IMG/VR virus record: IMGVR_UViG_3300032309_001318
Location: 20,540-84,539 of that record
Strand: one strand, 5' to 3'
Length of the DNA: 64,000 nucleotides
DNA from: a virus
The position numbers were made by a program, and so were the translations under genes. Positions 1 to 15,571 of the stretch are shown here, piece by piece. Under the pieces are notes generated by a model. It was not told where the DNA came from and did no database searches. It saw only the letters and a program-made list of their open reading frames with translations. How positions within the stretch are numbered: the stretch's first letter is position 1; each line of letters starts with the position of its first letter.

Positions 1-192
1 ACTCTTCCTTCATCTGGATATTCAACTGGTCAGTCAATTGATTTCTACCAAGCATCAGGAACTGGAGCGTCATTTGCTTCAACAAACAGTGTTGTTGGTA
101 CACCAGGATTAAAATTTAGAACAACAAATTCGGTTGTAACAGCAATGAAAACTCCAAGCGGTTGGTTAGTTTTCGGAGATCTTTTAGCTTAA
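1..192 (+). CDS. 3' end of a virion/tail-fibre-like protein (partial, runs off the window start)
   Basis: Frame 1 is open from base 1 to TAA at 190-192 and reads TLPSSGYSTGQSIDFYQ...PSGWLVFGDLLA*. A C-terminal W-x-x-x-GDL ending is typical of phage fibre/structural domains. Not in the ORF track. Confidence 0.6.
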   Translation, partial: TLPSSGYSTGQSIDFYQASGTGASFASTNSVVGTPGLKFRTTNSVVTAMKTPSGWLVFGDLLA

Positions 193-216
193 AGAAAATT
201 ATAGAGGAGATTATAT

Positions 217-1506
217 ATGTCAAAACAAGCAGGTAGAATGAGCCAATCGGCTAATGACTTTTTAGAGCCATTTAAGCCAATTATCGGAACAGCAACAGAT
301 ATAGGAACAGATAGAGCATTTAATAATGGAGCCGCATCTGTACCATTTACAATGAGCGTAGATTCACCACCAGCTACTTCATATACAGTTACCTCAAGTC
401 CAGGAAGTTATACTGCTTCTGGATCTTCTTCTCCTATTACGGTACAAGGTTTACAATCTGGAACTAGTTATACATTTACAGTTATAGCTACAAACTCAGT
501 TGGTAATTCTGTGCCGTCAGACGCAAGTAATTCAATAACAGCAACAACAGTTCCACAAACACCAAGCGCTCCAAGTCTTTCAAATAATGGAGCAGAAACG
601 AACTCTGTTTCTTGGTCAGCCCCAGGAAATAATGGTGGAAAAGAAATTACTGGATATGGATTAATTGATCATGAAAATGATGTTACGTCATATAACTCTA
701 GTACATTTAGCGCTAACCTATCAGAAAACGGAAATGAAACCCAGACTGTTAGAGTAAGGGCTCAAAATGCTAATGGATTCTCATCATACAGCTCTAGCTC
801 AAACTCAGTTACTACAACACCATTTAGCTTTAGCCCATTTGGATTTACCCCATTTGGATTTACACCGTTTGGATTCACACCATTTGGCTTTACACCATTT
901 GGCTTTACACCATTTGGCTTTACTCCAAAATCGGTTGGAGCAGAAACAGTTATTAAATCAAAGGTGCCAGAAGGATTAATTCTTGCACACAACCTAAGCG
1001 TTGGCGACGTTTTATACTCTGCTAATATCGAGGGAATAGATGTTTCAAATACAGCAATAGTAGATTACATACAAAATTGGTCTGTTAGTAGCGCAAACAT
1101 ATCCCCAGCCGAAACTACCATTGTTGCAATGGCAGCAAGAATTGCTGACGAAGGAGCTATTGTTATTAATGGAAATAAATATTCTTTACAGCACTTTATT
1201 TTAGTAAAAAGAGATGGACAGATTCAATTCCAACCATCATCAAGCGTATTGGAAACAGATTTAATTTTTTCACCAAGCGAAAATAACTGGAAAGAAATCA
1301 CAGACTATAAAGTAACTACACAAAAAGAGTTACTAATATCAATTGACGTAGAGCCATACGACGTATTCTTTACAGACAATGCGCTAGTACACGATTCATA
1401 TAGAGCAAAAACTGATCCAAACGCATTAACTTCTAGCGACGAGACATTTAGCGACAAGTTGGATGCAATGTATCAGCAATGGAGAGATTCTCAAGACCAA
1501 GCCTAG
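217..1506 (+). CDS. Fibronectin type III (x2) virion-associated protein with Pro-Phe-Gly-Phe-Thr repeats and a C-terminal Hint (intein-like) domain
   Basis: RBS GAGGAG upstream. FN3 signatures (VQGLQSGTSYTFTVIATNSVG; VSWSAPGNNGG...VRVRAQNANG). Then PFSFS+(PFGFT)x6, then SVGAETVI...LSVGDVL...SLQH...IDVEPYDVFFTDNALVHDS. Confidence 0.8.
   Translation: MSKQAGRMSQSANDFLEPFKPIIGTATDIGTDRAFNNGAASVPFTMSVDSPPATSYTVTSSPGSYTASGSSSPITVQGLQSGTSYTFTVIATNSVGNSVPSDASNSITATTVPQTPSAPSLSNNGAETNSVSWSAPGNNGGKEITGYGLIDHENDVTSYNSSTFSANLSENGNETQTVRVRAQNANGFSSYSSSSNSVTTTPFSFSPFGFTPFGFTPFGFTPFGFTPFGFTPFGFTPKSVGAETVIKSKVPEGLILAHNLSVGDVLYSANIEGIDVSNTAIVDYIQNWSVSSANISPAETTIVAMAARIADEGAIVINGNKYSLQHFILVKRDGQIQFQPSSSVLETDLIFSPSENNWKEITDYKVTTQKELLISIDVEPYDVFFTDNALVHDSYRAKTDPNALTSSDETFSDKLDAMYQQWRDSQDQA
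820..924 (+). repeat. Seven tandem 15-bp units encoding PFSFS + 6x PFGFT
   Basis: ccatttagctttagc, ccatttggatttacc, ccatttggatttaca, ccgtttggattcaca, ccatttggctttaca x2, ccatttggctttact. Differences among the PFGFT units are all synonymous. Confidence 0.97.
931..1395 (+). other. Hint/intein-like autoprocessing domain (Ser1 ... His-Asp, followed by Ser)
   Basis: Block A-like SVGAETVI..G...A.NL.VGD.L, block B-like YSLQHFILV (TxxH position), block F/G-like ISIDVEPYDVFFTDNALVHD|S. Confidence 0.75.
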
Positions 1507-1521
1507 CAGTCAGGAATTAAT

Positions 1522-2169
1522 TTGTTTAAAAAAGTAAAGAAATTACGCTTAATGGGAATTTCTGGAGTTAGGTATTTTAAAGGTAAACCTGTACCTAAAT
1601 TTAGAAGGTATCCACAATACATAAAAGGTACTTGGGCACAATATACAGTGCTTACCGATAAAGGGAATTCTCAAGCTATAGAATGTCTTTATAAAAATGA
1701 TGATAATGAGTCTGGCACAATTGTTATGTCTTATTTTATTAACAACGATTATCCAGCATCTTGGGCTACAATAATTATAGACGGATATGATAAAGATCAC
1801 TATACTGCAATAACAGATAGGTTTTATACTAGCCCAATACATCGAAAGAAAAAGTACATAGAATCATTAGCTTTAATTGGATATCCAATATGGTGTACAT
1901 TTTTTAACATTTTACCAAGATTAGGCCCAGGCTATACACAAGGGACACAGGCCGTAGCATTAAGCGGATCCTCCCTCATAGCATCAGCAACTAAAAAAAG
2001 GTTTAATTTAAACAAAGATAAAATTGAAAAAATAGTTAAGGTTGGGATGACACCTGGGGAACTTCCTGAAATAAATATGCCAGCAGAATTAGTCATATAC
2101 AAAGATCCGATATTTCCAGCATTATTTCACTCTATGAGCATTTGGGAGCCAAATGATAAAAAATATTAA
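1522..2169 (+). CDS. Hypothetical protein, possible GNAT-fold acyltransferase
   Basis: TTG start after AGGA. DRFYTSPIHRKKKY loosely resembles GNAT motif A (lyV.p.yR.kG). Directly follows the Hint gene. Confidence 0.4.
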   Translation: MFKKVKKLRLMGISGVRYFKGKPVPKFRRYPQYIKGTWAQYTVLTDKGNSQAIECLYKNDDNESGTIVMSYFINNDYPASWATIIIDGYDKDHYTAITDRFYTSPIHRKKKYIESLALIGYPIWCTFFNILPRLGPGYTQGTQAVALSGSSLIASATKKRFNLNKDKIEKIVKVGMTPGELPEINMPAELVIYKDPIFPALFHSMSIWEPNDKKY

Positions 2170-2716
2170 TTCAATTAATAACAAAACTATGCTTTCCGAG
2201 TATAATAAAATGATCTCTCAGATGCACGAATATGTTTATAAATTTAATCCAGGAATTAAGCTAGGGTTTAAACCTAAAAAAGTTTCTTTAATTGATTATA
2301 AAACATTTAACTTTTTTGCAATGTATAACAAAAACATTCATATTCTATATAAAGAAATATCTGATTTAACAAAAGAATATTGCATTAAAAATGGAGTTAA
2401 TTTTGAAAGAAATTATTTTTATTTACTTGGCAATATAGTTAAAAAAGAAACTATTACATTAGACACATATCTAAATTTTGCACCTAATTATAAAACTACA
2501 TTTGTTGGATTTTATGTTATAGATTGCAATAAAGATCAAATTTTTATAAATGATGAAAAAATTGATTTAATTCCTGGACAATTAATATTTTTAGATTCAT
2601 CATCAAAGATATTGTTTAAAAAAATAAGTGATGGTTTGACAATACTATCATTTAATATCTCTCCGCTGGAGTATCTATACAGACAGTACTATCAGAAATG
2701 GATACCTTTAGCATGA
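2153..2716 (+). CDS. Degenerate TIGR02466-like 2OG-Fe(II) oxygenase-fold protein (no obvious iron-binding His motif)
   Basis: Shares FNFF..Y...IH.LY, GFYV, LSFNISPL and C-terminal WIP with the 4885 and 5526 paralogs but lacks their HDH and PH motifs. Confidence 0.5.
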   Translation: MIKNINSINNKTMLSEYNKMISQMHEYVYKFNPGIKLGFKPKKVSLIDYKTFNFFAMYNKNIHILYKEISDLTKEYCIKNGVNFERNYFYLLGNIVKKETITLDTYLNFAPNYKTTFVGFYVIDCNKDQIFINDEKIDLIPGQLIFLDSSSKILFKKISDGLTILSFNISPLEYLYRQYYQKWIPLA

Positions 2717-3432
2717 TTAAAATAGAATTTATTCCAAAATATAGGTTGTATAAAAAGGCATTCCCAGAGCCAGTAAGTGTTGCATCTAGCATACCAGAAT
2801 GGTGGAAGCATCAAGAAAGTTATTTAAATAATAATCAAGATATCCATAAAGGAACAATGATGTTGACAATTAAAAAATGCCAATCCATTTTTGACTCAAT
2901 GACATTTGGCTATTATTTAAAATGCCCAATGGATATATTTATAGATGCAACTGGAGATAAGATAAAAGTAGAATTGACATCTGAAATAATGGGTCTGCAC
3001 CAACAGTATATTCTTTCTCATCATTTAAAAGAGCAAATGTCCAAATACCCAATACCAGATTATTTTCACGAAGAAATTATTAGAATTCACCCAATGTGGT
3101 TAGTTAAAACAGAAGAGGGGCACAGCGCATTATTTATTTCTCCAATGCATGCAGAAGATTCCCCAATTAAAGCAATCTCTGGGGTCATAGACACAGACGC
3201 ATATGCATCAGATGGATACTTATCATTTTTTGTTAAAAAAGGATTTAAAGGAATAGTTAAACAAGGAACTCCAATTATTCAGGTAATTCCATTTAAAAGA
3301 GAAGACTGGGAAAGCTCAATAAGTGACGACAGGCAATCAGACACCAAGCTAAAAGAAAAAACTTTACAAGTTAGATCAGTATTTCAAAATGGGTACAGAA
3401 TGAAATTTTGGAAAAAGAAAACATATAGATGA
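2713..3432 (+). CDS. DUF6065-like (dUTPase-fold-like) protein
   Basis: Start moved to ATG 2713 (ATGA overlap). Motifs P....IPEWWK, TIKKC..IFD.MT.GY, SGVIDTD, VKQGTPIIQVIPFKREDW. Confidence 0.65.
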   Translation: MIKIEFIPKYRLYKKAFPEPVSVASSIPEWWKHQESYLNNNQDIHKGTMMLTIKKCQSIFDSMTFGYYLKCPMDIFIDATGDKIKVELTSEIMGLHQQYILSHHLKEQMSKYPIPDYFHEEIIRIHPMWLVKTEEGHSALFISPMHAEDSPIKAISGVIDTDAYASDGYLSFFVKKGFKGIVKQGTPIIQVIPFKREDWESSISDDRQSDTKLKEKTLQVRSVFQNGYRMKFWKKKTYR

Positions 3433-4157
3433 CCAGTAAGGCTGTTAATAGAGTGCCTTATGAAGCAGAATCATGGTCTCTAATGTCAACAATGACTTTT
3501 GAGCAAATATGCAATACGTCTAATTTGTTCCCAAAGTGGAAAGAATGGCAATATGTTAAATCTGATCCTGCCTATAAACAATCAATTCTAAAACCAGTAA
3601 ACATGTATGCTCATCATTTTTCTAACCCACCAGAGATAATAAAGAATTCTAAAAATAGTTTAACAATTAGATATTATAGCTACGGGGATATATTAATTCA
3701 AATAGCTGATCCGTTGCTAGGGCATAGGGGGGTATTCAAATCAAATCCAATTAATAGCTTTTTTTATGCAACCGATAAATGCTGGCTGCGTCAATTTTAT
3801 CCATCAGAAAATCAATACAATATCGTAGATCAGAATGCGATTTCTAAAAGAATTTTTAAAATTTATATTCCTTGGTTTTTAGATATGGACGTAGATTATT
3901 CAATTAAATGTAATATAGAAAATCCTTCATTAAAAATAATAGAAAAAACGGATTTCTTTACAAAAACAAATGAGAATGTTATAATAAAAGAAGCAAATTT
4001 TGTTGATTTTTATTTTACAAATTCTAAAAATCATATGGAAGACAATATTTGCGGATTAATAAAAAGAGGTACGTATTTATTTGATATAGAAATAAACACA
4101 GATAAAAAAACTATTAAAAAAATTATAAGGGAATATGAAAAAAGAATTAGTAATTAA
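3429..4157 (+). CDS. Hypothetical protein, possibly a divergent DUF6065-like paralog
   Basis: Contains FKIYIPWF and IKRGTYLFDI, echoing the neighbours' I.KGTP motif. Overlaps both neighbouring genes. Confidence 0.45.
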   Translation: MTSKAVNRVPYEAESWSLMSTMTFEQICNTSNLFPKWKEWQYVKSDPAYKQSILKPVNMYAHHFSNPPEIIKNSKNSLTIRYYSYGDILIQIADPLLGHRGVFKSNPINSFFYATDKCWLRQFYPSENQYNIVDQNAISKRIFKIYIPWFLDMDVDYSIKCNIENPSLKIIEKTDFFTKTNENVIIKEANFVDFYFTNSKNHMEDNICGLIKRGTYLFDIEINTDKKTIKKIIREYEKRISN

Positions 4158-4884
4158 ATTTACGCCAGGATTTTCAATTAATCCTGATGACTTAAACAAC
4201 GGACTAATTGTTGAGCCAGAAGAGTCTAAAAACCATCTTCCAGAATGGTATAAAAAACTTTCTAGATTTTATAAGTCTAACCATATCAGCAAGCTTCATC
4301 CAGTTAATGATAGAGGAACCGATGGAAGCGCTGCTTCGACAAAGCTATGTATGCCATTTTTTGACGCATTAACTTCTGGATATATGTACACACTAGACTA
4401 CGATCTTCATGTTAACCAAGACAAAAACGGATTTCCAGTACTTTCCTGGGAAGGACAGAACATGATAGTAGACAAAAGATTAATGACAGACGTCCCAGTC
4501 CCAACACACCATCACCCATTACATTTTGGCTGGAAGGTAAACTGGTATTCGGAAACACCAAAAGGATATTCTTTATTAATAACCCATCCGTTAAATAGAC
4601 ATGATTTACCATTTACCACCCTTAGTGGAATAATAGACTCCGATTTATGGCACACACCAGTATTTACATCCTTCTTCCTAAAAAGGAACTTTATTGGTAT
4701 AATACCTAAAGGAACACCTCTATTTCAGATGATTCCAATTAAAAGAGAAGGTTGGGCTTTGGAGATAGACTATTCGGTCAAGGGGAAAGAAATGAATCAA
4801 ATTAAAGATGAAAAAAGAAGGTCTTCAATTTATGCCTATTATAAAAATATAGTATGGCAACGTAAACAGTATAAGGGAAAATAA
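4135..4884 (+). CDS. DUF6065-like (dUTPase-fold-like) protein
   Basis: LPEWYKK, TKLCMPFFDALTSGY, TPKGYSLLITHPLNR.DLPF..LSGIIDSD, IPKGTPLFQMIPIKRE.W. Paralog of 2713. Confidence 0.7.
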   Translation: MKKELVIKFTPGFSINPDDLNNGLIVEPEESKNHLPEWYKKLSRFYKSNHISKLHPVNDRGTDGSAASTKLCMPFFDALTSGYMYTLDYDLHVNQDKNGFPVLSWEGQNMIVDKRLMTDVPVPTHHHPLHFGWKVNWYSETPKGYSLLITHPLNRHDLPFTTLSGIIDSDLWHTPVFTSFFLKRNFIGIIPKGTPLFQMIPIKREGWALEIDYSVKGKEMNQIKDEKRRSSIYAYYKNIVWQRKQYKGK

Positions 4885-5532
4885 ATGATTAATAATATGC
4901 AAATGAATCAGCCAACAGGTAAAGAGCATAAATTTTTTGAAAGATATTTAGACAATGACCTAGGCCAATTAGCAGAGTTTTTACAGAACCAATATTCTAA
5001 TATGGAAAACTTAAATCTCACTGGCATAACAAAGGTGACAGAGAGAGATCACTGGCTATCATCAGACAGCGTCTCTACTATAAAATGGAGGGAATATAAT
5101 GTTTTTCAATTTTATCATCCATCAATACATAAGCTATATAAAAACCTTGTAGAAATGGTTAAAGAAGCTTGTGAGTATTATGAAATTGATTTTGAAAAAC
5201 AACAATACATGATTCAAGGCTGGTTTAATATTAATTATAACGACAAAGGAAAGCTAGACTGGCACGATCACGGTGGACCGTATGCTCCATATTTTCACGG
5301 ATACTATTGCGTAAAAGCAGAGCCATCTACAACGTATTATAAAGTTTTTGGTAAAGAAGTTGATAATCACAATAAAGACAACAGGCTTATCATATCAGAA
5401 ATGGGACATCCACATGCAATGGGATCTTGGGACTGGGAAGGCCCTAGAGTAACAATTGCATACGATATAGTTCCATTAAAAAGTTTAATAGCAAACAAGG
5501 CACATCCACAACATTGGATACCAATATGTTAA
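4885..5532 (+). CDS. Putative 2OG-Fe(II) oxygenase (TIGR02466-like)
   Basis: GWFNIN, WHDH, HGYYCV, HPH, RVTIAYD: the double-stranded beta-helix oxygenase pattern. Confidence 0.7.
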   Translation: MINNMQMNQPTGKEHKFFERYLDNDLGQLAEFLQNQYSNMENLNLTGITKVTERDHWLSSDSVSTIKWREYNVFQFYHPSIHKLYKNLVEMVKEACEYYEIDFEKQQYMIQGWFNINYNDKGKLDWHDHGGPYAPYFHGYYCVKAEPSTTYYKVFGKEVDNHNKDNRLIISEMGHPHAMGSWDWEGPRVTIAYDIVPLKSLIANKAHPQHWIPIC

Positions 5533-6176
5533 ATAAACCACAAAAATTTTTTGAATCATATTTAAATAATGATACGCAAGCACTATCAAAATATTTATAT
5601 AAAATAAACGATGAAATTATTAAAGAAAATTCTTTAAATTTATCTAATGAGGTTTTAGATAAATATAAAAATTTACCAGGCGCAGCAACAAAAATTGGAA
5701 TAAATCATTATAATATTTTTATGTTTCCAATCGATGAGATATATAACCTATATTGTGAATTAAAAAATCTTACAAAAAAAGCATGTGAATATTATGAAAT
5801 AGATTTTAATTTTGAAAACTATGTAATACATGGCTGGTTTAATTTTGACTATAAGTCTACCGAGAATAAGGTCGATCCAGTAAAAAATCCAGAGCAACTT
5901 CATGATCATTTTGGAGGAACTGGCATACCACATTTTCACGGGTACTATTGTGTAAATGCCGAGCCATCCATAACATACTATAAGCTAGATAAAAATAATA
6001 ATGATTTATTTGAAAATGTTAATAAAAATAATAGAGCAATTATTTCCGAAACTGGCTACCCCCATGCTAGAGGAGATTGGCAACAAGACCAAGCAAGAGT
6101 AACAATTGCATACGATATTGTTCCGTTTAGAGAGATTAGCAATAGTAAATCTATGAAATGGATACCATTCAAATAA
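5526..6176 (+). CDS. Putative 2OG-Fe(II) oxygenase (TIGR02466-like), paralog of 4885
   Basis: Start moved to ATG 5526. GWFN, LHDH, HGYYCV.AEPS, YPH, RVTIAYDIVP, WIP. Confidence 0.7.
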   Translation: MLNKPQKFFESYLNNDTQALSKYLYKINDEIIKENSLNLSNEVLDKYKNLPGAATKIGINHYNIFMFPIDEIYNLYCELKNLTKKACEYYEIDFNFENYVIHGWFNFDYKSTENKVDPVKNPEQLHDHFGGTGIPHFHGYYCVNAEPSITYYKLDKNNNDLFENVNKNNRAIISETGYPHARGDWQQDQARVTIAYDIVPFREISNSKSMKWIPFK

Positions 6177-6991
6177 TGGAAAATATTGGTATATGCATTT
6201 ACAGCTATCAAAATAAAAATTTATTTAAAACTGTATCTGAAATTATAGACAAATCTAGTCAAAAAAATATGTTATATTTTTACATTATTGATCAAAATAA
6301 TGTAGACAGAACTAGATCCCTAGACCAACCAGATTTTTATGCATCAATTGTTTATAAATATGTTACGTGGGACTCTATTAAAAGCCCAATTGAATATAAG
6401 CGGGATGCATTTAAGTCACTGAATAAAAAATATTATATGCAAATTGGAGACGATGTTTCATTAGCTAAAGATTGGGACATCCATGCAGTTGAATTTTTAA
6501 AGAATAATAAAAACTCAATTTTATCTGGAAATTCTACGGTTACCTTAAAAAATAAAAATTGGTTCATGCTAGAGCCAGAAAGAGTACCATCTTCAAATTT
6601 TAATAAAATAAATTATATAGACAGAAATTTTATATTTGCATTGTCTGAAGATTTTGCAATAATAAATCAACCAACTCACTTAAAATACTTTGGAGAAGAA
6701 GAAAGTATTTCAATAGATTTAATTAATAGTGGCGTAGATATTTATAATTTTCCAGACGAATACATATCAATTAATAAAAATTCAGTAGAGGATAAATATA
6801 CCCCATTTTCTTTAACCCATAACTATAATCAATTTATTGAAAAATATTCAAATGAAATTCAAAAAAACTTTAATATAAATTTAATGCAGCTACCGTTTGA
6901 AGATAACGATGTTGCTTACGACACTGGCCAGTCTCAAATAGATAGAATGGGCGGATTAAGATATCTTGACAGGATTAAGGAGATCAGGTAA
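6176..6991 (+). CDS. Glycosyltransferase, similar to the GlcNAc-transferase (Skp1 Gnt1-like) family
   Basis: Start moved to ATG 6176 (TAATG overlap). I..YSY, IIDQ, YYMQIGDD (family consensus YxLQIDSH), WD, NFIF, YFGEE.S.SI...SG.DIY. Confidence 0.55.
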   Translation: MENIGICIYSYQNKNLFKTVSEIIDKSSQKNMLYFYIIDQNNVDRTRSLDQPDFYASIVYKYVTWDSIKSPIEYKRDAFKSLNKKYYMQIGDDVSLAKDWDIHAVEFLKNNKNSILSGNSTVTLKNKNWFMLEPERVPSSNFNKINYIDRNFIFALSEDFAIINQPTHLKYFGEEESISIDLINSGVDIYNFPDEYISINKNSVEDKYTPFSLTHNYNQFIEKYSNEIQKNFNINLMQLPFEDNDVAYDTGQSQIDRMGGLRYLDRIKEIR

Positions 6992-7533
6992 TGTTAATAA
7001 AAATAGTAGAAGATTTTATATCAGAACAAGATGCATTTTCTCTTATGGAAGAGATGCAATCGCCGTCAAAAATAAACCCGTATCCAGAATACTATAAAGA
7101 TAGAAACGGCGGAACTGCTTTCCCATATAACAATAGGGTAATGGATATACTTAAAAAATATTCAGTAAGAGCAAACCACATTCAGAAAGAATTTTTTAAC
7201 TTAAAAGACAAAGTAATTGTTACTAAGGCTTTTGGCTCGTGGTGGCAGCCAGGACAAAGTGGAAGTCCTCACATAGACGCAATTGAAAAAGAACCATTCA
7301 TAGAATATAGCACCGTAATTTATTTAAATGACGAGTACGAGGGCGGAGAGATATATTTTCCTAAACAAGCATTTTCTTTAAAGGCCAAAAAGTATTCTGC
7401 TATATTTTTCCCAGGAAATGATTATCAATATATTCATGGGGTTAAAGAAATTACTTCTGGCAGTAGGTATACAGCCCTCTATATGCAATCAACCAAGCAA
7501 GAGTTCGTAGACCCAGATTTTAGGGAGTGCTAA
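6991..7533 (+). CDS. Prolyl 4-hydroxylase-like 2OG-Fe(II) oxygenase
   Basis: HID iron motif, YLNDEYEGGEIYFP, HGVKEITSGSRY. Confidence 0.85.
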   Translation: MLIKIVEDFISEQDAFSLMEEMQSPSKINPYPEYYKDRNGGTAFPYNNRVMDILKKYSVRANHIQKEFFNLKDKVIVTKAFGSWWQPGQSGSPHIDAIEKEPFIEYSTVIYLNDEYEGGEIYFPKQAFSLKAKKYSAIFFPGNDYQYIHGVKEITSGSRYTALYMQSTKQEFVDPDFREC

Positions 7534-7535
7534 TA

Positions 7536-8189
7536 ATGCAATATCAAGAGTTGGCTTTAGGCGTTGTGTATTATAAAAATATTATAAAAGATCCCAATGA
7601 ACTAATTAATAAAATAGAGTCTTTAGAAGAAAAAAGAAGCCTACAAAAAGACTATAGGTCACAATCAGTAAAGCCTTGGCAAGCATGGGACTATGATCAC
7701 GGCAATAAAGAAAAAACAATATTCTGTTGGCAAAAATTTTTACCAAAGCCAAATGATATAGATGTTAATGATTATTTTTATAAAGAACAACACGAAATAT
7801 CTTCTGAGTTATTTAATGGTTTAGAAGATGGATTAAAACATTATTTTTCATTATATCCATATGCTGAAAAAAATATTAAATCTAGAGAAAAAACAATGCA
7901 CCTATTAAAATATAAAGAAAGCGGATTCCTACCAGCCCACTCAGACCATGGTATAAGCAGTAGAGTTTTATCGGCACTTCTTTATTTAAATGACGATTAT
8001 GAAGGTGGCAACATAAGATTCCCGCATTGTAATATTGACATGAAGCCAGAAGCTGGAAGCCTATTGTTTTTCCCATCAAATTTTGTTTACGTTCACGAAG
8101 TTGATGCGGTAACAAGCGGAACAAGATATTCATTGCCAAACTGGTATCATAATAGAAAAAACGCATACTACTCAGACGGGACAGAATAA
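7536..8189 (+). CDS. Prolyl 4-hydroxylase-like 2OG-Fe(II) oxygenase
   Basis: Start moved to ATG 7536. HSD, YLNDDYEGG.I.F, FFPSNFVY.HEV..VTSGTRY. Confidence 0.85.
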   Translation: MQYQELALGVVYYKNIIKDPNELINKIESLEEKRSLQKDYRSQSVKPWQAWDYDHGNKEKTIFCWQKFLPKPNDIDVNDYFYKEQHEISSELFNGLEDGLKHYFSLYPYAEKNIKSREKTMHLLKYKESGFLPAHSDHGISSRVLSALLYLNDDYEGGNIRFPHCNIDMKPEAGSLLFFPSNFVYVHEVDAVTSGTRYSLPNWYHNRKNAYYSDGTE

Positions 8190-8878
8190 TGATTATAGTA
8201 ACTGGATCGAGCAGGGGAATTGGGAATGTAATAGCAAATAGGCTTTCTAAAAATGGATATGATGTCATTGGCATATCAAGAGGTATGCCTCAAAACGATG
8301 TATCCTTTAAAACTTATCAAGCAGACGTAAGCCAAAAAAATACCTTAACTCCAATATTTGAAGATTTAAAAGAAAAAAATATTACAGTACAAGCTTTAAT
8401 AAATTGTGCTGGAATACTAGAAACCCCATTTGTAGACTGGCTAACAATAGAACAGAGCGAAATGGAATCAATATTTTCTACAAACGTAATAGGAACAATG
8501 AATTCTTGTCAAGTGTTTTTACCATTAATGGACAAAAAACAACATACACCAATAATAAATATGGCAAGCCTATCAGCGCATTCAGTAACCGATTTTGCAA
8601 TATATGGGGCAAGCAAGCATGCAGTATATGGATTTACAAAATCTTTAGCAAAAAAATTACAAAATACATCTATCAGACCAAACTGCATATCACCAGGCCC
8701 AATAAAATCAACAATGACAGAGGGCATACCAGACATGGCTTTTAAGCTATTTGCTGGCCCACAAATTATTAACCGAACAGTGTTCACATCTGACGACATA
8801 TGCAATATTGTAGAGCTTTTGCTTGACCCAAAATCAAGTAGTTTAACTGGACAAGCATTCCACATTGGTGGATACTAA
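8189..8878 (+). CDS. Short-chain dehydrogenase/reductase (SDR)
   Basis: TGSSRGIG, INCAG, YGASK catalytic motif, N.ISPG. Confidence 0.92.
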   Translation: MIIVTGSSRGIGNVIANRLSKNGYDVIGISRGMPQNDVSFKTYQADVSQKNTLTPIFEDLKEKNITVQALINCAGILETPFVDWLTIEQSEMESIFSTNVIGTMNSCQVFLPLMDKKQHTPIINMASLSAHSVTDFAIYGASKHAVYGFTKSLAKKLQNTSIRPNCISPGPIKSTMTEGIPDMAFKLFAGPQIINRTVFTSDDICNIVELLLDPKSSSLTGQAFHIGGY

Positions 8879-8888
8879 ACTACATTGA

Positions 8889-8897
8889 TGGTATAAT
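8889..8897 (+). promoter_or_regulatory. Extended -10 promoter (TGgTATAAT), probably leaderless
   Basis: TATAAT at 8892-8897 lies 6 nt before ATG 8904; no SD sequence. Confidence 0.7.
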
Positions 8898-8903
8898 TTT
8901 TAA

Positions 8904-10643
8904 ATGTCATACTCTTATAAAATACTAAAAGACCATCCAATTGGATTCTGGCAACTAGATGACTCTACGGCTACAGCAATAGACATTTCTGGATGCGGTA
9001 ATAATGGAGTTTATACAGGAAGCCTTCCAAGCCAAACTAAAATAATGCCAATGGTTTCTGGAGGCCAGTACTCAGCAAAAATTACTTCCTTATCAAAAAT
9101 AGAGTTTGCAATTATTAATGATTATTACGCACAAGCAGCAGGGGGAGGATTTGGAACGCTAGACACAGCTGATAATGAATTTACGCTAGAGTGTTGGATT
9201 TTACCAAAAATATCTTCTACAAACCTTACTCCAATTTTTATAGATTCTTCTAATGATCTTGGAATTGCTTGGCAAAACAACAATATTATATTTGTTATTG
9301 GCACCGAAACTTTAGAGTACACAGTTCCAGAAACTAATAAGTCTATTTATGTTGTATGCAAATATTCAGTAAATTCAGCATCAATATATTTAGACGGGAA
9401 CTTGGCTATTAGCAAAACAATAACTGGCGTTCCCTTTGAAAATACACAGGTCTTATTAAAGTCTGGGCCTACACAAAATAGCGCAGACGAGTTTTTAATA
9501 GATAATCCAGCAGTGTATAGATACTCTTTATCAGAAAAACAAATTAAAGATCATTACCTAAGTAATCAAAATACTTTACCAATACAGATTGCGTATCCAG
9601 ATAATGGAGAAATTTTTAATATTTATGACAATGGAATGAGAACATCATTTACTTATAATTATCCAAAAGATAAATCTTGGCAATATTTTTTAACAGAGGA
9701 TCTTACGCTAGGTAGGTCAGAAGAATATATTCAATTATCTAAGACAGATTTATTAGAAACAAAAGAAGTTATTTTAAAAGATATTATATCTATGCCTTCT
9801 GGTATATCAATGGATTCTTCAAAAATTCAATGGGACGGTAGCTCTGGAATTTCTGTTTATACAAGTCTAGACGGAGTGTCTTATGAACAATGCGAAAACG
9901 GATATTCAATACCTCAGTACAAGTATTCAGATTTTAACCAACAAAGATTTTTTCATTTAAAAATAGTAGTTTCTTCAACAGACTCCTCTAGATATATTCC
10001 AAAACTTTATTCATTATCAGTAAATTTTTACTCTGAGCAAATAGCTTATTCTAAAAATGGAGCGTCTTATGTTTATAAAATAGATAACCTAGATTATAGC
10101 CTTGGCAAAGAGGCTTATCCAATATTATCAATGAATAAATTAAATGGAGTATTAGTCCCAAATAATTCAGGGTTTAAGGTAGATATTCCATATGATACAA
10201 ATAGCATTGAGTTTTTCTATACCCCAAGCAGTATATTAAAAAGTTTATTAATATCATCTACTGGTACGGAATTTAGCTGGGCGGATAGCGGGTCTATATC
10301 AAAAACTAATATATCTAAAATATACGTAAATGGTGAAGATAAAACAGCACAATCAAATATATCCAATGTATTAAATTCAGGATATTTAAATCATATTGTA
10401 ATTGTTTTTCAAGCACCCATCTCTGGAGATCTGGTCTTTAATTATAAAAGCACTGGGTCTAAGAAGGGCTCATATCAGCATATAACCCTATATAGGGATG
10501 CTTTAGATCAAAATAAGGCAATAACTCATTACAATTTATATACTGGAAGATCGGTATATACCTCTACCGCATCTGCCATGTCGGTGACAGAAAGATCTCC
10601 TGAAATATATAATAATGACTGGATTGTTATTCAAAATTCATAA
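8904..10643 (+). CDS. LamG/concanavalin-A-like domain virion protein
   Basis: D.PIGFWQLDD...A.DISGCGNNG.Y, FTLECW, IYLDG, AVYRYSLS..QI..HY. Confidence 0.75.
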   Translation: MSYSYKILKDHPIGFWQLDDSTATAIDISGCGNNGVYTGSLPSQTKIMPMVSGGQYSAKITSLSKIEFAIINDYYAQAAGGGFGTLDTADNEFTLECWILPKISSTNLTPIFIDSSNDLGIAWQNNNIIFVIGTETLEYTVPETNKSIYVVCKYSVNSASIYLDGNLAISKTITGVPFENTQVLLKSGPTQNSADEFLIDNPAVYRYSLSEKQIKDHYLSNQNTLPIQIAYPDNGEIFNIYDNGMRTSFTYNYPKDKSWQYFLTEDLTLGRSEEYIQLSKTDLLETKEVILKDIISMPSGISMDSSKIQWDGSSGISVYTSLDGVSYEQCENGYSIPQYKYSDFNQQRFFHLKIVVSSTDSSRYIPKLYSLSVNFYSEQIAYSKNGASYVYKIDNLDYSLGKEAYPILSMNKLNGVLVPNNSGFKVDIPYDTNSIEFFYTPSSILKSLLISSTGTEFSWADSGSISKTNISKIYVNGEDKTAQSNISNVLNSGYLNHIVIVFQAPISGDLVFNYKSTGSKKGSYQHITLYRDALDQNKAITHYNLYTGRSVYTSTASAMSVTERSPEIYNNDWIVIQNS

Positions 10644-10668
10644 AGTTGTCCACCATAGCGACAAAATG

Positions 10669-10697
10669 TGGACATTAATTAGAAAGAATGGTAAAAT
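10669..10697 (+). promoter_or_regulatory. Sigma70-type promoter TGGACA-N17-TAAAAT with extended TG
   Basis: 17-nt spacer. Overlaps the inverted repeat TGTCCAC(10647-10653)/GTGGACA(10668-10674). Confidence 0.55.
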
Positions 10698-10706
10698 TAA
10701 CATCTA

Positions 10707-11042
10707 ATGGACATTAAAAGAATTAATCAAAAAGTAGTAGAGGAAACTACACTAGGAATTTATGTGTGGGAAATGCCAGACGGAAGATGGATTGGCGATG
10801 ACGATGGAAACTTTTTATCAATAACAGCTAAAAAAGGTAACCGATCAAAGATGGATTTGTTGGCGAGAGAAGTAAGATCATATGGAATACACGAAGGACA
10901 GCCTAAATTTTTATCAGGTAGACGTAAAGTTGACGACGAAGAGTTTCAGCATCAAAAACAAAGACTAGAATGGGGACTAACACCAGATCCTCTTGACATA
11001 GGTGTTTACAAGGATTCATTAAAAAGCGGAGGCAAACAATAA
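10707..11042 (+). CDS. Conserved-looking phage hypothetical protein upstream of portal
   Basis: ORF abuts the portal start; function not recognisable. Confidence 0.7.
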   Translation: MDIKRINQKVVEETTLGIYVWEMPDGRWIGDDDGNFLSITAKKGNRSKMDLLAREVRSYGIHEGQPKFLSGRRKVDDEEFQHQKQRLEWGLTPDPLDIGVYKDSLKSGGKQ

Positions 11043-12626
11043 ATGGAGTTCATGAACGAAGACCCTAGCGTCTCAGAAACTATTGACATATCAAACTCTG
11101 CAGACTGGATAAAGTTTAATAATAAAGAAGTTGTATTAAGTGATGATCCATTTAGCATTGAAGGCGAAGAGTTAAAGAAAGTTAATGGACTAAGCCCAAC
11201 ATTTCGTAGAAAAATATCTAGAGAGTTTCAAAAGCGTTTTATAGGACAAGAAGGAACTGGAACACAACAGAATCTACTACAACAAGCAGTTACTGGATAC
11301 GCAATGTTTGACCTTGTCCAACCAGTCTATAATCTTGAATATCTTTCAAAAATTTATGAGATATCCCCATACAACTACTCAGCAATTAATGCAAAGGTTG
11401 CTAACATTGTTGGCCTTGGATACTCTTTTGTAGAAACAAAAAAAGCTAACGATGCTTTAGATAATATTACTGATAAAAAACAATTAGAACGTGCTCGACG
11501 TAAATTAAATAAACTTCGTCAAGATTTAGATTATTGGCTAGAGGAAACAAATGAAGAAGAAACATTTACAGAAACATTAGTAAAAGCTTATACAGATTTA
11601 GAGGCTACTGGCAATGGATACATTGAAATTGGAAGAACCGTGTCTGGGAATATTGGGTACATCGGACATATACCATCCAAGACAATGCGGGTACGTAGAC
11701 TTCGTGACGGATTTATACAACTTCTTTATGGCAAGGCAGTATACTTTAGAAACTTTGCAGATCAAGAAACTCCTAACCCAATTTCTGGAGCAGAAGATCG
11801 TCCAAATGAAGTTATTCATTTAAAGAAATATACGCCAATGAACAATTACTACGGAATCCCAGATATAATTGCTGCACAAACTGCAATGGCAGGAAATGAA
11901 TTTTCTGGAAAATATAACTTAGATTATTTTGAAAATAAAGCGGTTCCAAGGTATATAATTACAGTAAAGGGTGCAAAGCTTTCACCAGAATCCGAACGTA
12001 AACTACTAGAATTTTTCCAAGTTGGGCTAAAGGGTAAAAACCATAGATCACTCTATGTACCACTTCCAGCGGATACATCTGACTCTAAAGTTGAATTTAA
12101 AATGGAACCTATTGAGGCAAACCCACAGGAGTCTTCATTTAATGTATACAGAAAAGCAAATAGAGATGAAATCCTTTTAGCACACAGAGTCCCAGTAAAT
12201 AAAATTGGAGTTCCAGAAGGAGTCAGCCTAGCTTCAGCAAGAGATGCAGATAAAATGTTTAAAGAACAAGTTTGTAGGCCAGCTCAAGATATTTTAGAAA
12301 AGAAAATAAATAGAATTATTTCTGAAAAAACAGATGCATTAATGCTTAAATTTAATGAATTGACTTTAACAGACGAAGATACACAATCTAAAATTGATGA
12401 AAGATATTTAAGAATGCAGGTGATTACCCCCAATGAAGTTAGAATTAGAAAGGGTATGATACCGATGGACGGTGGAGATGAGGTTGTTGATTTGCAGGCA
12501 CAAGCAGCCGAAATCAAGGCTCAGGCATTAAATACCAGAAATAGAACTCAGGAAAGATCGGCCAATTCACCAGATAGTTCTGGGGAAGCCAGAAATCCAA
12601 AAGGTGAGGGTAGAGTCACAGCTTAA
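11043..12626 (+). CDS. Portal protein (HK97/PBSX family)
   Basis: D.EATGNGYIEI.R, EVIHLK......YYGIP, YFEN.AVP, ILLAHRVP..KIG, TPNEVR. Sits before the protease and capsid genes. Confidence 0.92.
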   Translation: MEFMNEDPSVSETIDISNSADWIKFNNKEVVLSDDPFSIEGEELKKVNGLSPTFRRKISREFQKRFIGQEGTGTQQNLLQQAVTGYAMFDLVQPVYNLEYLSKIYEISPYNYSAINAKVANIVGLGYSFVETKKANDALDNITDKKQLERARRKLNKLRQDLDYWLEETNEEETFTETLVKAYTDLEATGNGYIEIGRTVSGNIGYIGHIPSKTMRVRRLRDGFIQLLYGKAVYFRNFADQETPNPISGAEDRPNEVIHLKKYTPMNNYYGIPDIIAAQTAMAGNEFSGKYNLDYFENKAVPRYIITVKGAKLSPESERKLLEFFQVGLKGKNHRSLYVPLPADTSDSKVEFKMEPIEANPQESSFNVYRKANRDEILLAHRVPVNKIGVPEGVSLASARDADKMFKEQVCRPAQDILEKKINRIISEKTDALMLKFNELTLTDEDTQSKIDERYLRMQVITPNEVRIRKGMIPMDGGDEVVDLQAQAAEIKAQALNTRNRTQERSANSPDSSGEARNPKGEGRVTA

Positions 12627-15161: not shown

Positions 15162-15557
15162 ATGTCATTTGAGACATTAAAATTAGCTGAACTTAAAAAG
15201 GTTGCCGAAGACTTCGGAGTAGACTTAGAAAACTTAAAAAGCAAAACAGACATAATTGCGGGACTATCAGAAGAAGGTGTAACTTGGGCGGTATACTCAA
15301 AAACACTTAAAGATATAGATGATGCAAAAGAAGAGATTGAAGTTTTACCAAGATTTGATGTAAAGAAAAAACAAAATAAAGACGAAGTTCTTGTAAGAAT
15401 GGATAGATCTAACCATAGGTACGATACAATGGGATACACGTTTACAAAAGATCATCCTTTTGCAGCAATGTCAGAAGAGGCAGCTCAAGAAATTTTTGAT
15501 AAGGAGGAGGGTTTTAGATTAGCCACACCAAAGGAAGCACAAGACTTCTACAACTAA
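15162..15557 (+). CDS. Hypothetical head-region protein with a Rho-N/HeH-like N-terminus
   Basis: LKLAELKKVAEDFGVD....K.DII; good RBS. Confidence 0.55.
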   Translation: MSFETLKLAELKKVAEDFGVDLENLKSKTDIIAGLSEEGVTWAVYSKTLKDIDDAKEEIEVLPRFDVKKKQNKDEVLVRMDRSNHRYDTMGYTFTKDHPFAAMSEEAAQEIFDKEEGFRLATPKEAQDFYN

Positions 15558-15571
15558 TTTAAACCTTTAAT

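What the first reader, a model, noticed from the sequence alone, without database searches (positions are those of the whole stretch)
217..8878. Candidate undescribed phage system: autoprocessing FN3-(PFGFT)n-Hint precursor plus a dedicated modification-enzyme operon (RiPP-like virion decoration)
Seen: one gene encodes two FN3 domains, a Pro/Phe-rich pentapeptide array and a Hint domain starting two residues after the last repeat. It is followed by 11 genes, with the first 15 nt downstream and the rest overlapping or abutting: GNAT-like, 3 TIGR02466-like oxygenase-fold, 3 DUF6065-like, a GlcNAc-transferase-like protein, 2 prolyl-4-hydroxylase-like oxygenases and an SDR. The next recognisable promoter is at 8889. 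Established: Hint domains cleave or ligate at their N-terminal junction; P4H-type enzymes hydroxylate peptidyl Pro; multi-core repeats beside tailoring enzymes are the hallmark of RiPP clusters. Inference: the repeat tract is the substrate. It would be hydroxylated, glycosylated or acylated, then exposed as the new C-terminus of an FN3 virion appendage (or released as peptides) after Hint cleavage, giving a chemically tailored adhesin or shield.
Basis: partly seen in the sequence, partly recalled or inferred. Interest (0 to 1): 0.92.

Follow-up and report, generated by a model that had tools for sequence, protein, structure and literature searches.

The report
Self-cutting phage fibre protein beside tailoring enzymes
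An uncultured freshwater phage encodes a tail-fibre-region protein ending in a phenylalanine-rich repeat and a genuine self-cutting intein-like domain, followed by hydroxylase- and sugar-transferase-like genes that may decorate it, though that link is unproven.

Summary
Gene 217-1506 encodes two FN3 domains, PFSFS plus six PFGFT units, and a C-terminal domain that I confirmed as a Hint fold of the bacterial intein-like (BIL) type. It has Ser239 at position 1 and ends His-Asp|Ser with a 36-residue tail. Eleven tightly packed genes follow.

- "GNAT-like" has no support.
- The DUF6065-like proteins have a dUTPase fold.
- The "TIGR02466-like" call rests on weak leads.
- The promoter at 8889 is no better than chance.

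The RiPP-like reading is only partly supported. For it: the P4H-like and GT60-like enzymes belong to protein-modifying kinds. All 60 related loci with enough flank carry cassette genes behind the repeat gene. The FG tracts are the only periodic Pro repeats in this genome.

Against it:
- The gene is one of two fibre-plus-FG-Hint cassettes, and the paralogue has no enzymes beside it.
- In three related genomes the cassette lies 52-58 kb from the FG-Hint gene.
- Two of those three FG-Hint proteins have (FGA)n tracts without Pro or Thr next to the Hint.
- The enzyme families also occur in viruses with no detectable relative of this gene.

This scan has flagged both the FG-Hint family and the cassette before on other DNA. 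No chemistry is shown.

The parts
1..192 (+). 3' end of a 721-aa tail-fibre gene (Mtd_N N-terminus; C-terminal motif PGLKxR...WxVFGDL) that precedes g01
   Evidence: PF18454 E 2.4e-17 on the full ORF, L004:6567-8729
217..1506 (+). g01: FN3-FN3-(PFSFS + 6 x PFGFT)-Hint-helical tail, 429 aa
820..924 (+). Phe/Pro pentapeptide array, residues 202-236
   Evidence: copy number varies from about 4 to 11 in the homologues read
931..1395 (+). BIL-type Hint domain, S239-D393 (Ser1, SLQH block B, terminal His-Asp)
1396..1503 (+). 36-residue tail starting at Ser394; residues 179-196 of the 197-residue model (protein residues about 411-428) are predicted helical
   Evidence: conserved in the Ser/His-Asp class only
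1522..2169 (+). g02: conserved protein of unknown family (GNAT call unsupported)
2153..2716 (+). g03: degenerate paralogue of g07/g08 that lacks their His-rich motifs
2698..3432 (+). g04: dUTPase-fold protein (DUF6065-like, phrog_7084) with invariant Cys61 and ID-x-D motif
3429..4157 (+). g05: possible degenerate relative of g04/g06
   Evidence: hhalign probability 30%, E 5.5e-4, 86 columns
4135..4884 (+). g06: paralogue of g04 (phrog_7084 E 2.8e-37)
4885..5532 (+). g07: WHDH...GHPH protein, possibly 2OG-oxygenase-like (unconfirmed)
5514..6176 (+). g08: paralogue of g07 (43% identity)
6158..6991 (+). g09: GT60-like (PF11397) glycosyltransferase candidate
6991..7533 (+). g10: P4H-like 2OG-Fe(II) oxygenase
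7527..8189 (+). g11: P4H-like 2OG-Fe(II) oxygenase. H138 and D140 are invariant; a distal His and an Arg are conserved in most of the 8 aligned homologues
8189..8878 (+). g12: classical short-chain dehydrogenase/reductase
   Evidence: present in 27 of 60 related loci with 7 kb or more of downstream DNA
8904..10643 (+). g13: Laminin_G_3 protein that bounds the island, followed by g14 and the portal gene (context, not part of the cassette)

Best explanation
Two neighbouring but separable modules.

(1) g01 belongs to the tail-fibre module. It is one of two fibre-plus-accessory cassettes in this phage. Its N-terminal binding domains (FN3 here, PASTA or larger domains in paralogues) are joined through a Phe-rich repeat to a BIL-type Hint domain. 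Ser239 most likely attacks the K238-S239 peptide bond (N-to-O acyl shift). The resulting ester is then resolved, so the Hint and its helical tail come off and FN3-FN3-(PFGFT)n is left with the repeat at its new C-terminus. The fold and the conserved residues are shown; the cleavage itself is inferred.

(2) g02-g12 is a shuffled version of a cassette widely shared among this phage family. It holds P4H-like oxygenases, a GT60-like transferase, dUTPase-fold proteins, g07-type proteins and, in this clade, an SDR. It most likely tailors proteins by hydroxylation and then glycosylation. In this genome the FG tracts are the best candidate target. They are not shown to be the target, and the cassette is not dedicated to them.
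For: Hint domain:
- Profile hits to inteins and BIL domains.
- Confident model (pLDDT 90.8). Every row listed among the 45 Foldseek matches at E <= 0.001 is a BIL, intein or Hedgehog Hint domain.
- Conservation across 27 homologues: nucleophile S/C 27 of 27, block-B S/T 26 of 27, block-B His 20 of 27, penultimate His 23 of 27, terminal D/N 25 of 27.
- Hint-less relatives end in the repeat.

Fibre module:
- Both FG-Hint genes directly follow Mtd_N fibres that share a C-terminal motif.
- The same pairing is seen in L050 and L060.

Cassette as protein-tailoring:
- The best PDB sequence relatives of g10/g11 are B. anthracis P4H, P3H1 and, for g11, PHD2.
- g11 has invariant H138 and D140 and a largely conserved distal His and Arg.
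- 6 of 13 g09-family members match PF11397.
- A carbamoyltransferase sits beside the P4H-like gene in L124, and one is encoded at 57424-58863 of the window.

Linkage:
- All 60 g01-anchored loci with 7 kb or more downstream carry a g04/g06- or g03/g07/g08-family gene; 33 of the 60 carry GT60-like plus P4H-like genes.
- 65 of 82 distinct F-rich ORFs are immediately followed by a cassette member, of five different kinds.
- Only 5 + strand ORFs of this record reach 6 Pro in 30 residues. Two of them are the FG-Hint proteins, and these are the only periodic tracts.

Separability: (see the Against line and the full report).

Precedent in print: cyanophage dioxygenase arrays that include a dUTPase-fold protein with a conserved Cys, and co-encoded fibre-like proteins proposed as dioxygenase substrates (PMC2938197, passages read).
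Against: - No chemistry is shown: neither cleavage nor any modification.
- The terminal His-Asp and Ser1 are unusual, so the domain could be slow or inactive.
- g04/g06 have a nucleotide-enzyme fold. Their relatives in 49 halovirus records and one cyanophage stand without this cassette. The two neighbourhoods I read hold thymidylate synthase, DNA polymerase or ribonucleotide reductase.
- In relatives the island also holds a B12-type RNR and a cobalamin adenosyltransferase, so it may simply be a slot for auxiliary genes.
- The linkage counts are not phylogenetically independent and are biased by how the loci were fetched.
- The oxygenase nature of g07/g08 is unconfirmed.
Confidence: 0.5

Rival explanations
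1. g01 and g02-g12 form one dedicated RiPP-like system. The enzymes hydroxylate, glycosylate or acylate the PFGFT units. The Hint then exposes the tailored tract as the C-terminus of a virion appendage.
For: - 15-nt spacing and a tightly packed operon.
- 60 of 60 informative g01-anchored loci have cassette genes downstream.
- Adjacency survives with five different immediate neighbours.
- P4H-like and GT60-like families.
- Loci with GT60-like genes have purer PFGFT tracts: mean Pro 0.19 and Thr+Ser 0.25, against 0.15 and 0.19 without.
- The FG tracts are the only periodic Pro repeats in the record.
Against: - 13 of 35 informative g07-anchored loci lack an FG gene upstream.
- The cassette and the FG-Hint gene lie 52-58 kb apart in G001, G002 and G004.
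- In G001 and G002 the tract next to the Hint is (FGA)n with no Pro, Thr or Ser, yet P4H-like and GT60-like genes are present in G001 and G004.
- The paralogue in this genome has no enzymes beside it.
- Only 33 of 60 loci have GT60-like plus P4H-like genes, while all keep the repeat.
- The covariation follows clade boundaries.
- No RiPP recognition element or peptide-releasing protease was seen by Pfam.
Confidence: 0.25
2. The cassette is unrelated to g01. It is an auxiliary island acting on nucleotides, DNA or small molecules. dUTPase-fold proteins would bind pyrimidine nucleotides and oxygenases, transferase and SDR would modify a base, sugar or metabolite. It merely sits at the boundary between the fibre genes and the portal gene.
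For: - g04 model: the 22 best VIA matches (Z 9.6 to 6.0) are all dUTPase-fold proteins, mostly dUTPases and dCTP deaminases plus two herpesvirus dUTPase-related proteins. The scores then drop to 4.8.
- Invariant ID-x-D, Q and GTP motifs resemble dUTPase motifs as I recall them.
- Relatives sit next to thymidylate synthase and DNA polymerase in HSTV-2 and next to RNR subunits in S-RIM4.
- A B12-type RNR and a cobalamin adenosyltransferase lie in the same island in L050 and L060.
- Iyer et al. read the cyanophage arrays as secondary-metabolite clusters.
Against: - The nearest solved relatives of g10/g11 are peptidyl-prolyl hydroxylases, not nucleic-acid oxygenases.
- g09 resembles a family of polypeptide GlcNAc-transferases (what the family does is recalled).
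- No thymidylate-synthase-like, kinase or other base-modification gene was seen among the 20 replication-region ORFs scanned.
- A shared fold does not show function.
Confidence: 0.15
3. The Hint does not merely cut. It transfers the FN3-FN3-(PFGFT)n module from the Ser239 ester onto a nucleophile, such as a lysine of the fibre or a cell-wall or other acceptor. This would be a covalent, ATP-independent attachment.
For: - The best structural match is Tetrahymena BIL2. BIL2 forms isopeptide bonds to lysines without ATP (PMC8616854, passage read).
- Each FG-Hint gene is paired with a fibre that shares a conserved C-terminal domain.
- The Ser/His-Asp class keeps a conserved +1 Ser and helical tail that could position an acceptor.
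Against: - Hint-less relatives end in the repeat and could not be attached this way.
- The Cys class ends HN-K-stop with no tail.
- No acceptor has been identified.
- Plain hydrolysis is the simpler outcome.
Confidence: 0.12
4. The Hint domain is catalytically dead in this class and serves as a structural or docking domain. The full-length 429-aa protein is the functional form.
For: - Asp replaces the canonical Asn.
- A related class has Phe, Tyr or Leu in place of the penultimate His (4 of 27).
- 7 of 27 have Gln in place of the block-B His.
- Such substitutions suggest relaxed catalytic constraint in parts of the family.
Against: - The nucleophile is kept in 27 of 27, and block-B S/T in 26 of 27.
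- The window protein has Ser1, SLQH and His-Asp all intact.
- Hint-less natural variants show that the N-terminal part works without the Hint.
Confidence: 0.1

Closest known systems
Bacterial intein-like (BIL) domains, e.g. Clostridium thermocellum BIL (PDB 2lwy); types A and B of Amitai 2003 and Dassa 2004, as summarised in PMC7765530 (passages read)
   Same: Hint fold (Foldseek E 8.6e-7, TM to target 0.81). No homing endonuclease. Sits in variable, non-conserved proteins rather than in a conserved enzyme. Expected to auto-cleave at its N-terminus.
   Different: Viral and placed in a tail-fibre module. Always preceded by a Phe-rich repeat. Ser1 and terminal His-Asp in this class. No Pfam Hint family detects it at E 0.1.
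Tetrahymena BUBL BIL2 domain (PDB 6y75)
   Same: Best structural match (E 5.6e-7). A Hint domain that hands on the polypeptide upstream of it.
   Different: BIL2 uses Cys1 and conjugates ubiquitin-like domains to lysines. No conjugation is shown or testable here.
Hedgehog and 'Hoglet'-type Hog proteins (Hint releases an N-terminal secreted domain; Hoglet has a Thr-rich tract before the Hint).
   Same: N-terminal functional part plus a low-complexity tract plus a C-terminal Hint that removes itself. Hedgehog Hint 1at0 and 6tyy are among the matches.
   Different: No sterol-recognition region, only a 36-residue tail. No evidence of lipid transfer. Prokaryotic virus.
Skp1 prolyl-hydroxylation and glycosylation pathway of Dictyostelium and Toxoplasma (PhyA P4H plus Gnt1, GT60). 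Only search listings and abstracts seen; details recalled.
   Same: A P4H-like oxygenase next to a PF11397/GT60-like transferase.
   Different: No Skp1 and different further enzymes. The GT60 assignment is below the Pfam cut-off for the window protein. The target is unknown.
Tandem dioxygenase arrays of cyanophage Syn9 (gp41-gp54) with a dUTPase-fold protein bearing a conserved Cys (Iyer, Abhiman, de Souza, Aravind 2010, PMC2938197; passages read)
   Same: Several unrelated 2OG oxygenases together with a dUTPase-fold protein in one phage operon. g04/g06 have an invariant Cys and a dUTPase fold. That paper also proposes co-encoded fibre-like proteins as dioxygenase substrates in other operons.
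   Different: No halogenases or JmjC member here. A GT60-like transferase and an SDR are added. Adjacency to an FG-repeat-Hint gene is not described there.
Chlorovirus PBCV-1 prolyl 4-hydroxylase (PDB 5c5t) acting on virus-encoded Pro-rich repeats. The function is recalled.
   Same: Virus-encoded P4H-type enzyme and virus-encoded periodic Pro repeats. 5c5t appears among g10's weak matches (E 0.32).
   Different: Very weak similarity. Eukaryotic virus. No Hint domain.
Mycobacteriophage virion glycosylation by phage glycosyltransferases. Only search listings seen; content recalled.
   Same: Phage-encoded transferases decorating the phage's own structural proteins.
   Different: Different transferase families. 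No hydroxylases, dUTPase-fold proteins or Hint processing.

Membership tests
Hint superfamily (BIL type) | Hint (horseshoe beta) fold | tested here: met
   pLDDT 90.8. Foldseek matches to BIL, intein and Hedgehog Hint domains, best E 5.6e-7. Profile hits at E 3e-7.
Hint superfamily (BIL type) | Cys/Ser/Thr nucleophile at position 1 | tested here: met
   Ser239; S or C in 27 of 27 aligned homologues.
Hint superfamily (BIL type) | Block B T/S-x-x-H | tested here: met
   SLQH at residues 323-326. S/T in 26 of 27; His in 20 of 27, Gln in 7.
Hint superfamily (BIL type) | C-terminal His-Asn | tested here: not met
   The window protein ends His392-Asp393. Across 27 homologues the last residue is D 15, N 10, E 1, K 1. 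This feature is canonical for inteins and A-type BILs but not for all Hint domains.
Hint superfamily (BIL type) | Located in variable, non-conserved proteins, without a homing endonuclease | tested here: met
   The N-terminal domains differ (FN3, PASTA, proteins of 900 aa or more) while the repeat and Hint are shared. The domain is 155 aa.
Hint superfamily (BIL type) | Auto-cleavage activity | not testable with these tools
   Needs expression and mass spectrometry.
True intein | Interrupts a conserved host protein; intein-less alleles join the two flanks | tested here: not met
   Hint-less relatives (L060, 237 aa) stop at the repeat and lack the tail. The Cys class ends HN-K-stop.
RiPP biosynthetic cluster | Precursor recognition element (RRE or leader) and peptide-releasing protease | tested here: not met
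   No such family among the Pfam hits of the 12 proteins at E 0.1. This is only as far as Pfam sees.
RiPP biosynthetic cluster | Tailoring enzymes strictly co-located with the precursor | tested here: not met
   13 of 35 informative g07-anchored loci lack an FG gene upstream. Separation of 52-58 kb in 3 records.
Prolyl 4-hydroxylase-type 2OG-Fe(II) oxygenases (g10, g11) | PF13640-type double-stranded beta-helix with HxD...H and a 2OG-binding basic residue | tested here: met
   g11: PF13640 at 60.8 bits against a cut-off of 27; H138 and D140 invariant, distal His and Arg conserved in most of 8 sequences. g10: phrog_61 at E 1.1e-19; P4H 3itq at E 7.7e-4.
Prolyl 4-hydroxylase-type 2OG-Fe(II) oxygenases (g10, g11) | Hydroxylation of peptidyl proline | not testable with these tools
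   The complex-prediction job gave no verdict.
GT60 / PF11397 polypeptide GlcNAc-transferases (g09) | Match to the family model over its cut-off | tested here: inconclusive
   19 bits against a cut-off of 21, over residues 12-57 only. 6 of 13 family members match, best E 8.6e-7. No PDB sequence relative.
dUTPase / dCTP deaminase superfamily (g04, g06) | Jelly-roll beta-barrel fold of dUTPases | tested here: met
   VIA-align: the 22 best matches are all dUTPase-fold proteins, Z 9.6-6.0, with 95-127 residues aligned; the next match scores 4.8. Foldseek E 3e-3 at best. Model pLDDT 84.7.
dUTPase / dCTP deaminase superfamily (g04, g06) | Five dUTPase motifs and nucleotide hydrolysis | tested here: inconclusive
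   Invariant GY, ID-x-D and Q motifs resemble motifs I, III and IV as I recall them. No motif-V-like Gly-rich tail. No PDB sequence hit.
PF13759 / TIGR02466 2OG oxygenases (g03, g07, g08) | Match to the family model | tested here: inconclusive
   0 of 30 members at E 0.1. No NCBIfam hit. The PF13759 model hits g11, not g07/g08, in the phage record. Atlas neighbours carry PF13759. hhalign to 5 cyanophage PF13759 proteins: probability 21%, E 0.001, 38 columns over the distal His and Arg.
GNAT acetyltransferases (g02) | Match to any GNAT model | tested here: not met
   No Pfam, NCBIfam or PHROG family.
Short-chain dehydrogenases/reductases (g12) | adh_short model over its cut-off | tested here: met
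   PF00106 at 129.9 bits and PF13561 at 131.3 bits.

The most novel reading that the evidence does not exclude
The FG-repeat-Hint genes are a phage 'click-on adhesin' system. Interchangeable binding modules (FN3, PASTA and others) carry a Phe-rich tail that the neighbouring hydroxylase, transferase and dUTPase-fold enzymes tailor. The BIL-type Hint then transfers the whole module from its Ser/Cys (thio)ester onto the partner tail fibre or the host envelope. This would be an ATP-independent covalent attachment of the kind known for Tetrahymena BIL2. It would combine enzymatic tailoring with Hint-driven ligation in virion assembly.
Probability: 0.08. Interest if true: 0.9.

Novelty: new variant of a known kind. 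Interest (0 to 1): 0.6.

Why it matters
P4H-like 2OG oxygenases are very common in aquatic phages: a g11-like gene was found in 422 cultured-phage records. As far as I recall, their natural substrates are not known. This phage family offers a concrete, testable candidate substrate, a periodic Pro/Phe/Thr tract that a Hint domain places at the C-terminus of a fibre-associated protein. It also offers a clean biochemical handle, self-cleavage at one defined bond.

The FG-Hint proteins are a sizeable family: 141 proteins at E <= 0.001 in one word-limited search. They carry unusual Ser/His-Asp chemistry, and I found no published description in three full-text searches.

If the enzymes do act on the tract, this would be hydroxyproline-type protein glycosylation in a bacteriophage. 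If they do not, the dUTPase-fold plus oxygenase cassette still needs a substrate.

Tried and rejected
- Complex prediction of g11 (alignment A7) with g01 residues 196-246: score 0.00, no verdict. It counts neither for nor against binding.
- Megablast of window 1-12000 against cultured phages: no match.
- tblastn against cultured phages: g01 found only FN3 similarity in 3 records; g07 and g09 found nothing.
- PDB sequence-profile searches for the g04 family, g07 family and g09 family: nothing meaningful.
- Foldseek of the g04 model gave no hit at E <= 0.001. The fold only became clear with the VIA-align wide search.
- g02 compared by hhalign with the g04 and g07 families: no relation.
- The promoter and terminator scan gave no more sites than shuffles, and no + strand terminator in 1-11200. 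It says nothing about operon limits.
- Metatranscriptome contigs:
  - Run X19 has a contig on 754-1563, spanning the g01 stop and the g02 start, with two repeat units fewer. It also has contigs on 6397-6791 and on g13-portal.
  - Run X20 has contigs on 878-1048 and 1084-1503.
  - These are contigs from RNA libraries that may contain DNA. I take them as a weak hint of expression at most, and uncovered parts mean nothing.
- My first regular expression for FG repeats missed FGAFG- and FGVFG-type tracts. I replaced it with a Phe-density rule. The 'NONE' rows should not be used.
- I considered a DNA-hypermodification reading (dUTPase fold plus transferase plus oxygenases). Pfam scans of 20 replication-region ORFs showed no thymidylate-synthase-like, kinase or base-modifying gene, and g10/g11 are P4H-like rather than nucleic-acid oxygenases. 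I therefore kept it only as a minor rival.
- Supplementary files of papers were not consulted. The Supplementary Data of PMC2938197 may list the dUTPase-fold family members and bear on novelty.

Full report
**What the window is.** The window is bases 20540-84539 of an 84.5-kb IMG/VR virus record estimated 78% complete. GC is 29-38% and nearly all long ORFs lie on the + strand. The portal gene (11043-12626) is about 56% identical to portals of large Streptomyces siphophages. The replication genes are bacterial in type: DnaB, primase, Pol III alpha and RecA. Near-identical DNA occurs in many runs labelled freshwater or lake metagenome, from 14 studies, one of which may be the source. The host is unknown. 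An actinobacterial host is a guess from the portal similarity and a PASTA domain.

**The observation.** ORF 217-1506 encodes 429 residues.
- Pfam finds FN3 twice (E 7.7e-10).
- Residues 202-236 are PFSFS followed by six PFGFT. At DNA level this is a 15-nt repeat of 7.4 copies. About 0.0007 PFGFT are expected from the composition.
- P237 and K238 follow the last unit, then S239.

No Pfam Hint family reaches E 0.1 on the C-terminal part, so I tested it separately. I aligned residues 233-429 with 26 diverse homologues taken from related viral loci (alignment A1).
- The profile finds inteins and the C. thermocellum BIL domain among PDB sequences at E about 3e-7.
- The AlphaFold2 model is confident (pLDDT 90.8, pTM 0.87).
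- Its best Foldseek matches are Tetrahymena BIL2 (6y75, E 5.6e-7) and the C. thermocellum BIL domain (2lwy), then many inteins and Hedgehog.
- Position 1 is Ser or Cys in 27 of 27 sequences. Block B has S/T in 26 and His in 20. The penultimate residue is His in 23, and the last is Asp in 15 and Asn in 10.

The Hint call is therefore right. The domain is S239-D393 and a 36-residue tail starts at S394.

**Family anatomy.** The family has at least three chemical classes:
- Ser1 ... His-Asp|Ser plus a helical tail, as in the window.
- Cys1 ... His-Asn-Lys-stop.
- Ser ... Phe/Tyr-Asp.

The number of repeat units varies from about 4 to 11. The N-terminal parts differ: FN3, PASTA, or proteins of more than 900 residues. 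Some relatives have no Hint at all and end in the repeat, for example L060, 237 residues ending ...FGFSPPFR. That is what the cleaved product of g01 would look like. Because those variants also lack the tail, the domain is not a true intein.

**The eleven genes.** The family calls need correction.

| Gene | Result |
|---|---|
| g12 | Classical SDR |
| g11 | PF13640; invariant H138 and D140, largely conserved distal His and Arg |
| g10, g11 | Nearest solved sequences are prolyl hydroxylases |
| g09 | Just under the PF11397 cut-off; 6 of 13 family members match, best E 8.6e-7 |
| g04, g06 | Paralogues (phrog_7084), under the DUF6065 cut-off |
| g05 | Linked to g04/g06 only by hhalign probability 30% |
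| g03, g07, g08 | One family; g03 lacks the WHDH and GHPH motifs |
| g02 | No family |

The g04 model (pLDDT 84.7) matches dUTPase-fold proteins in the 22 best VIA-align rows, mostly dUTPases and dCTP deaminases. Z runs from 9.6 to 6.0, and the next row scores 4.8. The g04/g06 family has an invariant Cys and an ID-x-D motif.

The oxygenase nature of g03/g07/g08 is not confirmed. No PF13759 or TIGR02466 hit was found. The only support is language-model neighbours that carry PF13759 and a weak profile match over the distal His and Arg.

The promoter-like site near 8889 exists (8869-8897). However, such sites are no more frequent than in shuffles, and a better one lies inside the cluster.

**Is g01 tied to the enzymes?**

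Evidence for a tie:
- In 77 loci fetched through g01, 70 have at least one g02-g12 homologue downstream. The other seven have 5.3 kb or less of downstream DNA.
- Of 60 loci with at least 7 kb downstream, all 60 have a g04/g06- or g03/g07/g08-family gene. 33 have GT60-like plus P4H-like genes and 27 have the SDR.
- Among 82 distinct Phe-rich ORFs in all loci held, 65 are directly followed by a cassette member, and five different kinds of member take that place.
- Within this record, only five + strand ORFs reach 6 Pro in 30 residues. The two FG-Hint proteins are the only ones with periodic tracts.

Evidence against a tie:
- These counts are biased by how the loci were fetched and come from one phage family.
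- g01 is the second of two cassettes made of an Mtd_N fibre ending PGLKxR...WxVxGDL followed by an FG-Hint gene. The first, a PASTA-FG-Hint gene with a Hint 62% identical, is followed by more fibre genes and not by enzymes.
- Loci fetched through the g07 family give a different picture. Of the 47 not already known, 22 have an FG gene upstream, 13 with at least 4.5 kb of upstream DNA have none, and 12 are uninformative.
- In L124, the five-gene run of g05-, g06-, g07-, g09- and g10-like genes is followed by a carbamoyltransferase and a CHAP lysin. It is preceded by unrelated genes, one of which is a PA14 protein with a Pro/Thr-rich tract.
- Whole-record searches found an FG-Hint gene in 5 of 5 such records. 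In three of them it lies 52-58 kb from the g07 locus.
- In two of those three records, G002 and G004, a g04-like gene still follows the FG-Hint gene directly.
- In G001 and G002 the tract next to the Hint is (FGA)n with no Pro, Thr or Ser. In G004 it is mostly FGA with a few Pro. Yet G001 and G004 have P4H-like and GT60-like genes at their g07 locus.
- Tracts are purer PFGFT where GT60-like genes are nearby: Pro 0.19 against 0.15. This difference follows clade boundaries.
- In L050 and L060 the island holds three g07-like genes plus a B12-type ribonucleotide reductase, and in L060 a cobalamin adenosyltransferase.
- Outside this family, g04/g06 relatives occur in 49 halovirus records and one cyanophage record. 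In the two neighbourhoods I read they sit next to thymidylate synthase and DNA polymerase, or next to ribonucleotide reductase.
- g11-like genes occur in 422 cultured-phage records. g01 finds only FN3 similarity in three records, none of them a halovirus or a cyanophage.

**Reading.** I take g01 to be a fibre-module accessory protein. Its Hint most likely cuts at K238|S239 and leaves the FG tract as the C-terminus. I take g02-g12 to be a mobile tailoring cassette, of which P4H-like plus GT60-like is the interpretable core. The FG tract is the best candidate substrate in this genome, but it is neither a shown nor an exclusive one.

The dUTPase-fold proteins remain unexplained. Iyer et al. 2010 already noted a dUTPase-fold protein with a conserved Cys inside cyanophage dioxygenase arrays. 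They also proposed co-encoded fibre-like proteins as dioxygenase substrates in other operons (PMC2938197, passages read).

The best structural match to the Hint, Tetrahymena BIL2, forms isopeptide bonds without ATP (PMC8616854, passage read). This keeps a ligation reading open.

**Earlier notes of this scan.** Other agents had flagged the FG-Hint family and the P4H, GT60 and dUTPase-fold cassette on other genomes, including T4-like phages. I reached the Hint fold, the dUTPase fold and the fibre pairing from my own calls. The pointer to Iyer et al. came from one of those notes, and I then read the paper. The claim about T4-like phages I did not test.

**Novelty.** Three full-text searches found no description of Phe-rich-repeat-Hint phage proteins, and 'PFGFT' occurred in none of the ten papers listed for the last search. 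The parts are known kinds: BIL Hint domains, P4H-type oxygenases, GT60-like transferases and dioxygenase arrays with a dUTPase-fold protein. Their combination and the Ser/His-Asp chemistry are a new variant. The functional link is still a hypothesis.

Noticed in passing
window 51514-53427 and 57424-58863: A second glycan-type gene set: a GT25-like transferase, a small methyltransferase, a DXD sugar-binding transferase and, 4 kb on, a carbamoyltransferase. In the related locus L124 a carbamoyltransferase lies directly behind the P4H-like gene. The two sets may therefore work together.
   Followed up: partly
G000:C1:13765-16079 (5.4-4.5 kb upstream of the window start; L004:1766-4080): A paralogous cassette: a 453-aa Mtd_N fibre followed by a PASTA-(FSFTPFGFTPFSFT)-Pro-rich-Hint-tail protein whose Hint is 62% identical to g01's. 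Fibre-like genes follow it, not enzymes.
   Followed up: yes
L124:353-2188: In phages where the cassette stands apart from the FG-Hint gene, a 611-aa PA14 protein with a long (EPTPEPSPEPT)-type Pro/Thr tract lies 2.4 kb upstream of it. It is another conceivable hydroxylase substrate.
   Followed up: no
L050:13450-15480; L060:12884-14929 and 15554-16048: In relatives, the island between the FG gene and the LamG/portal genes carries a B12-dependent ribonucleotide reductase and, in L060, a cobalamin adenosyltransferase.
   Followed up: partly
L164:205-1998 (record G001): An FG-Hint protein with three Cys-rich inserts (C-x-x-C ... CPD patterns) between two Phe-rich tracts, the second of which is about 17 FGA units.
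   Followed up: no
window 817-927 compared with RNA-library contig X19 record 3: A contig from a metatranscriptome library covers 754-1563 with 30 nt (two repeat units) fewer. This fits the copy-number variation of the repeat among strains.
   Followed up: no
window 8904-10643 compared with L050:16110-19700: The Laminin_G_3 protein that bounds the island is 579 aa here. The ORF at the same place in some relatives is 1196 aa, had no Pfam hit at E 0.01, and was not matched by g13 at E 1e-5.
   Followed up: no
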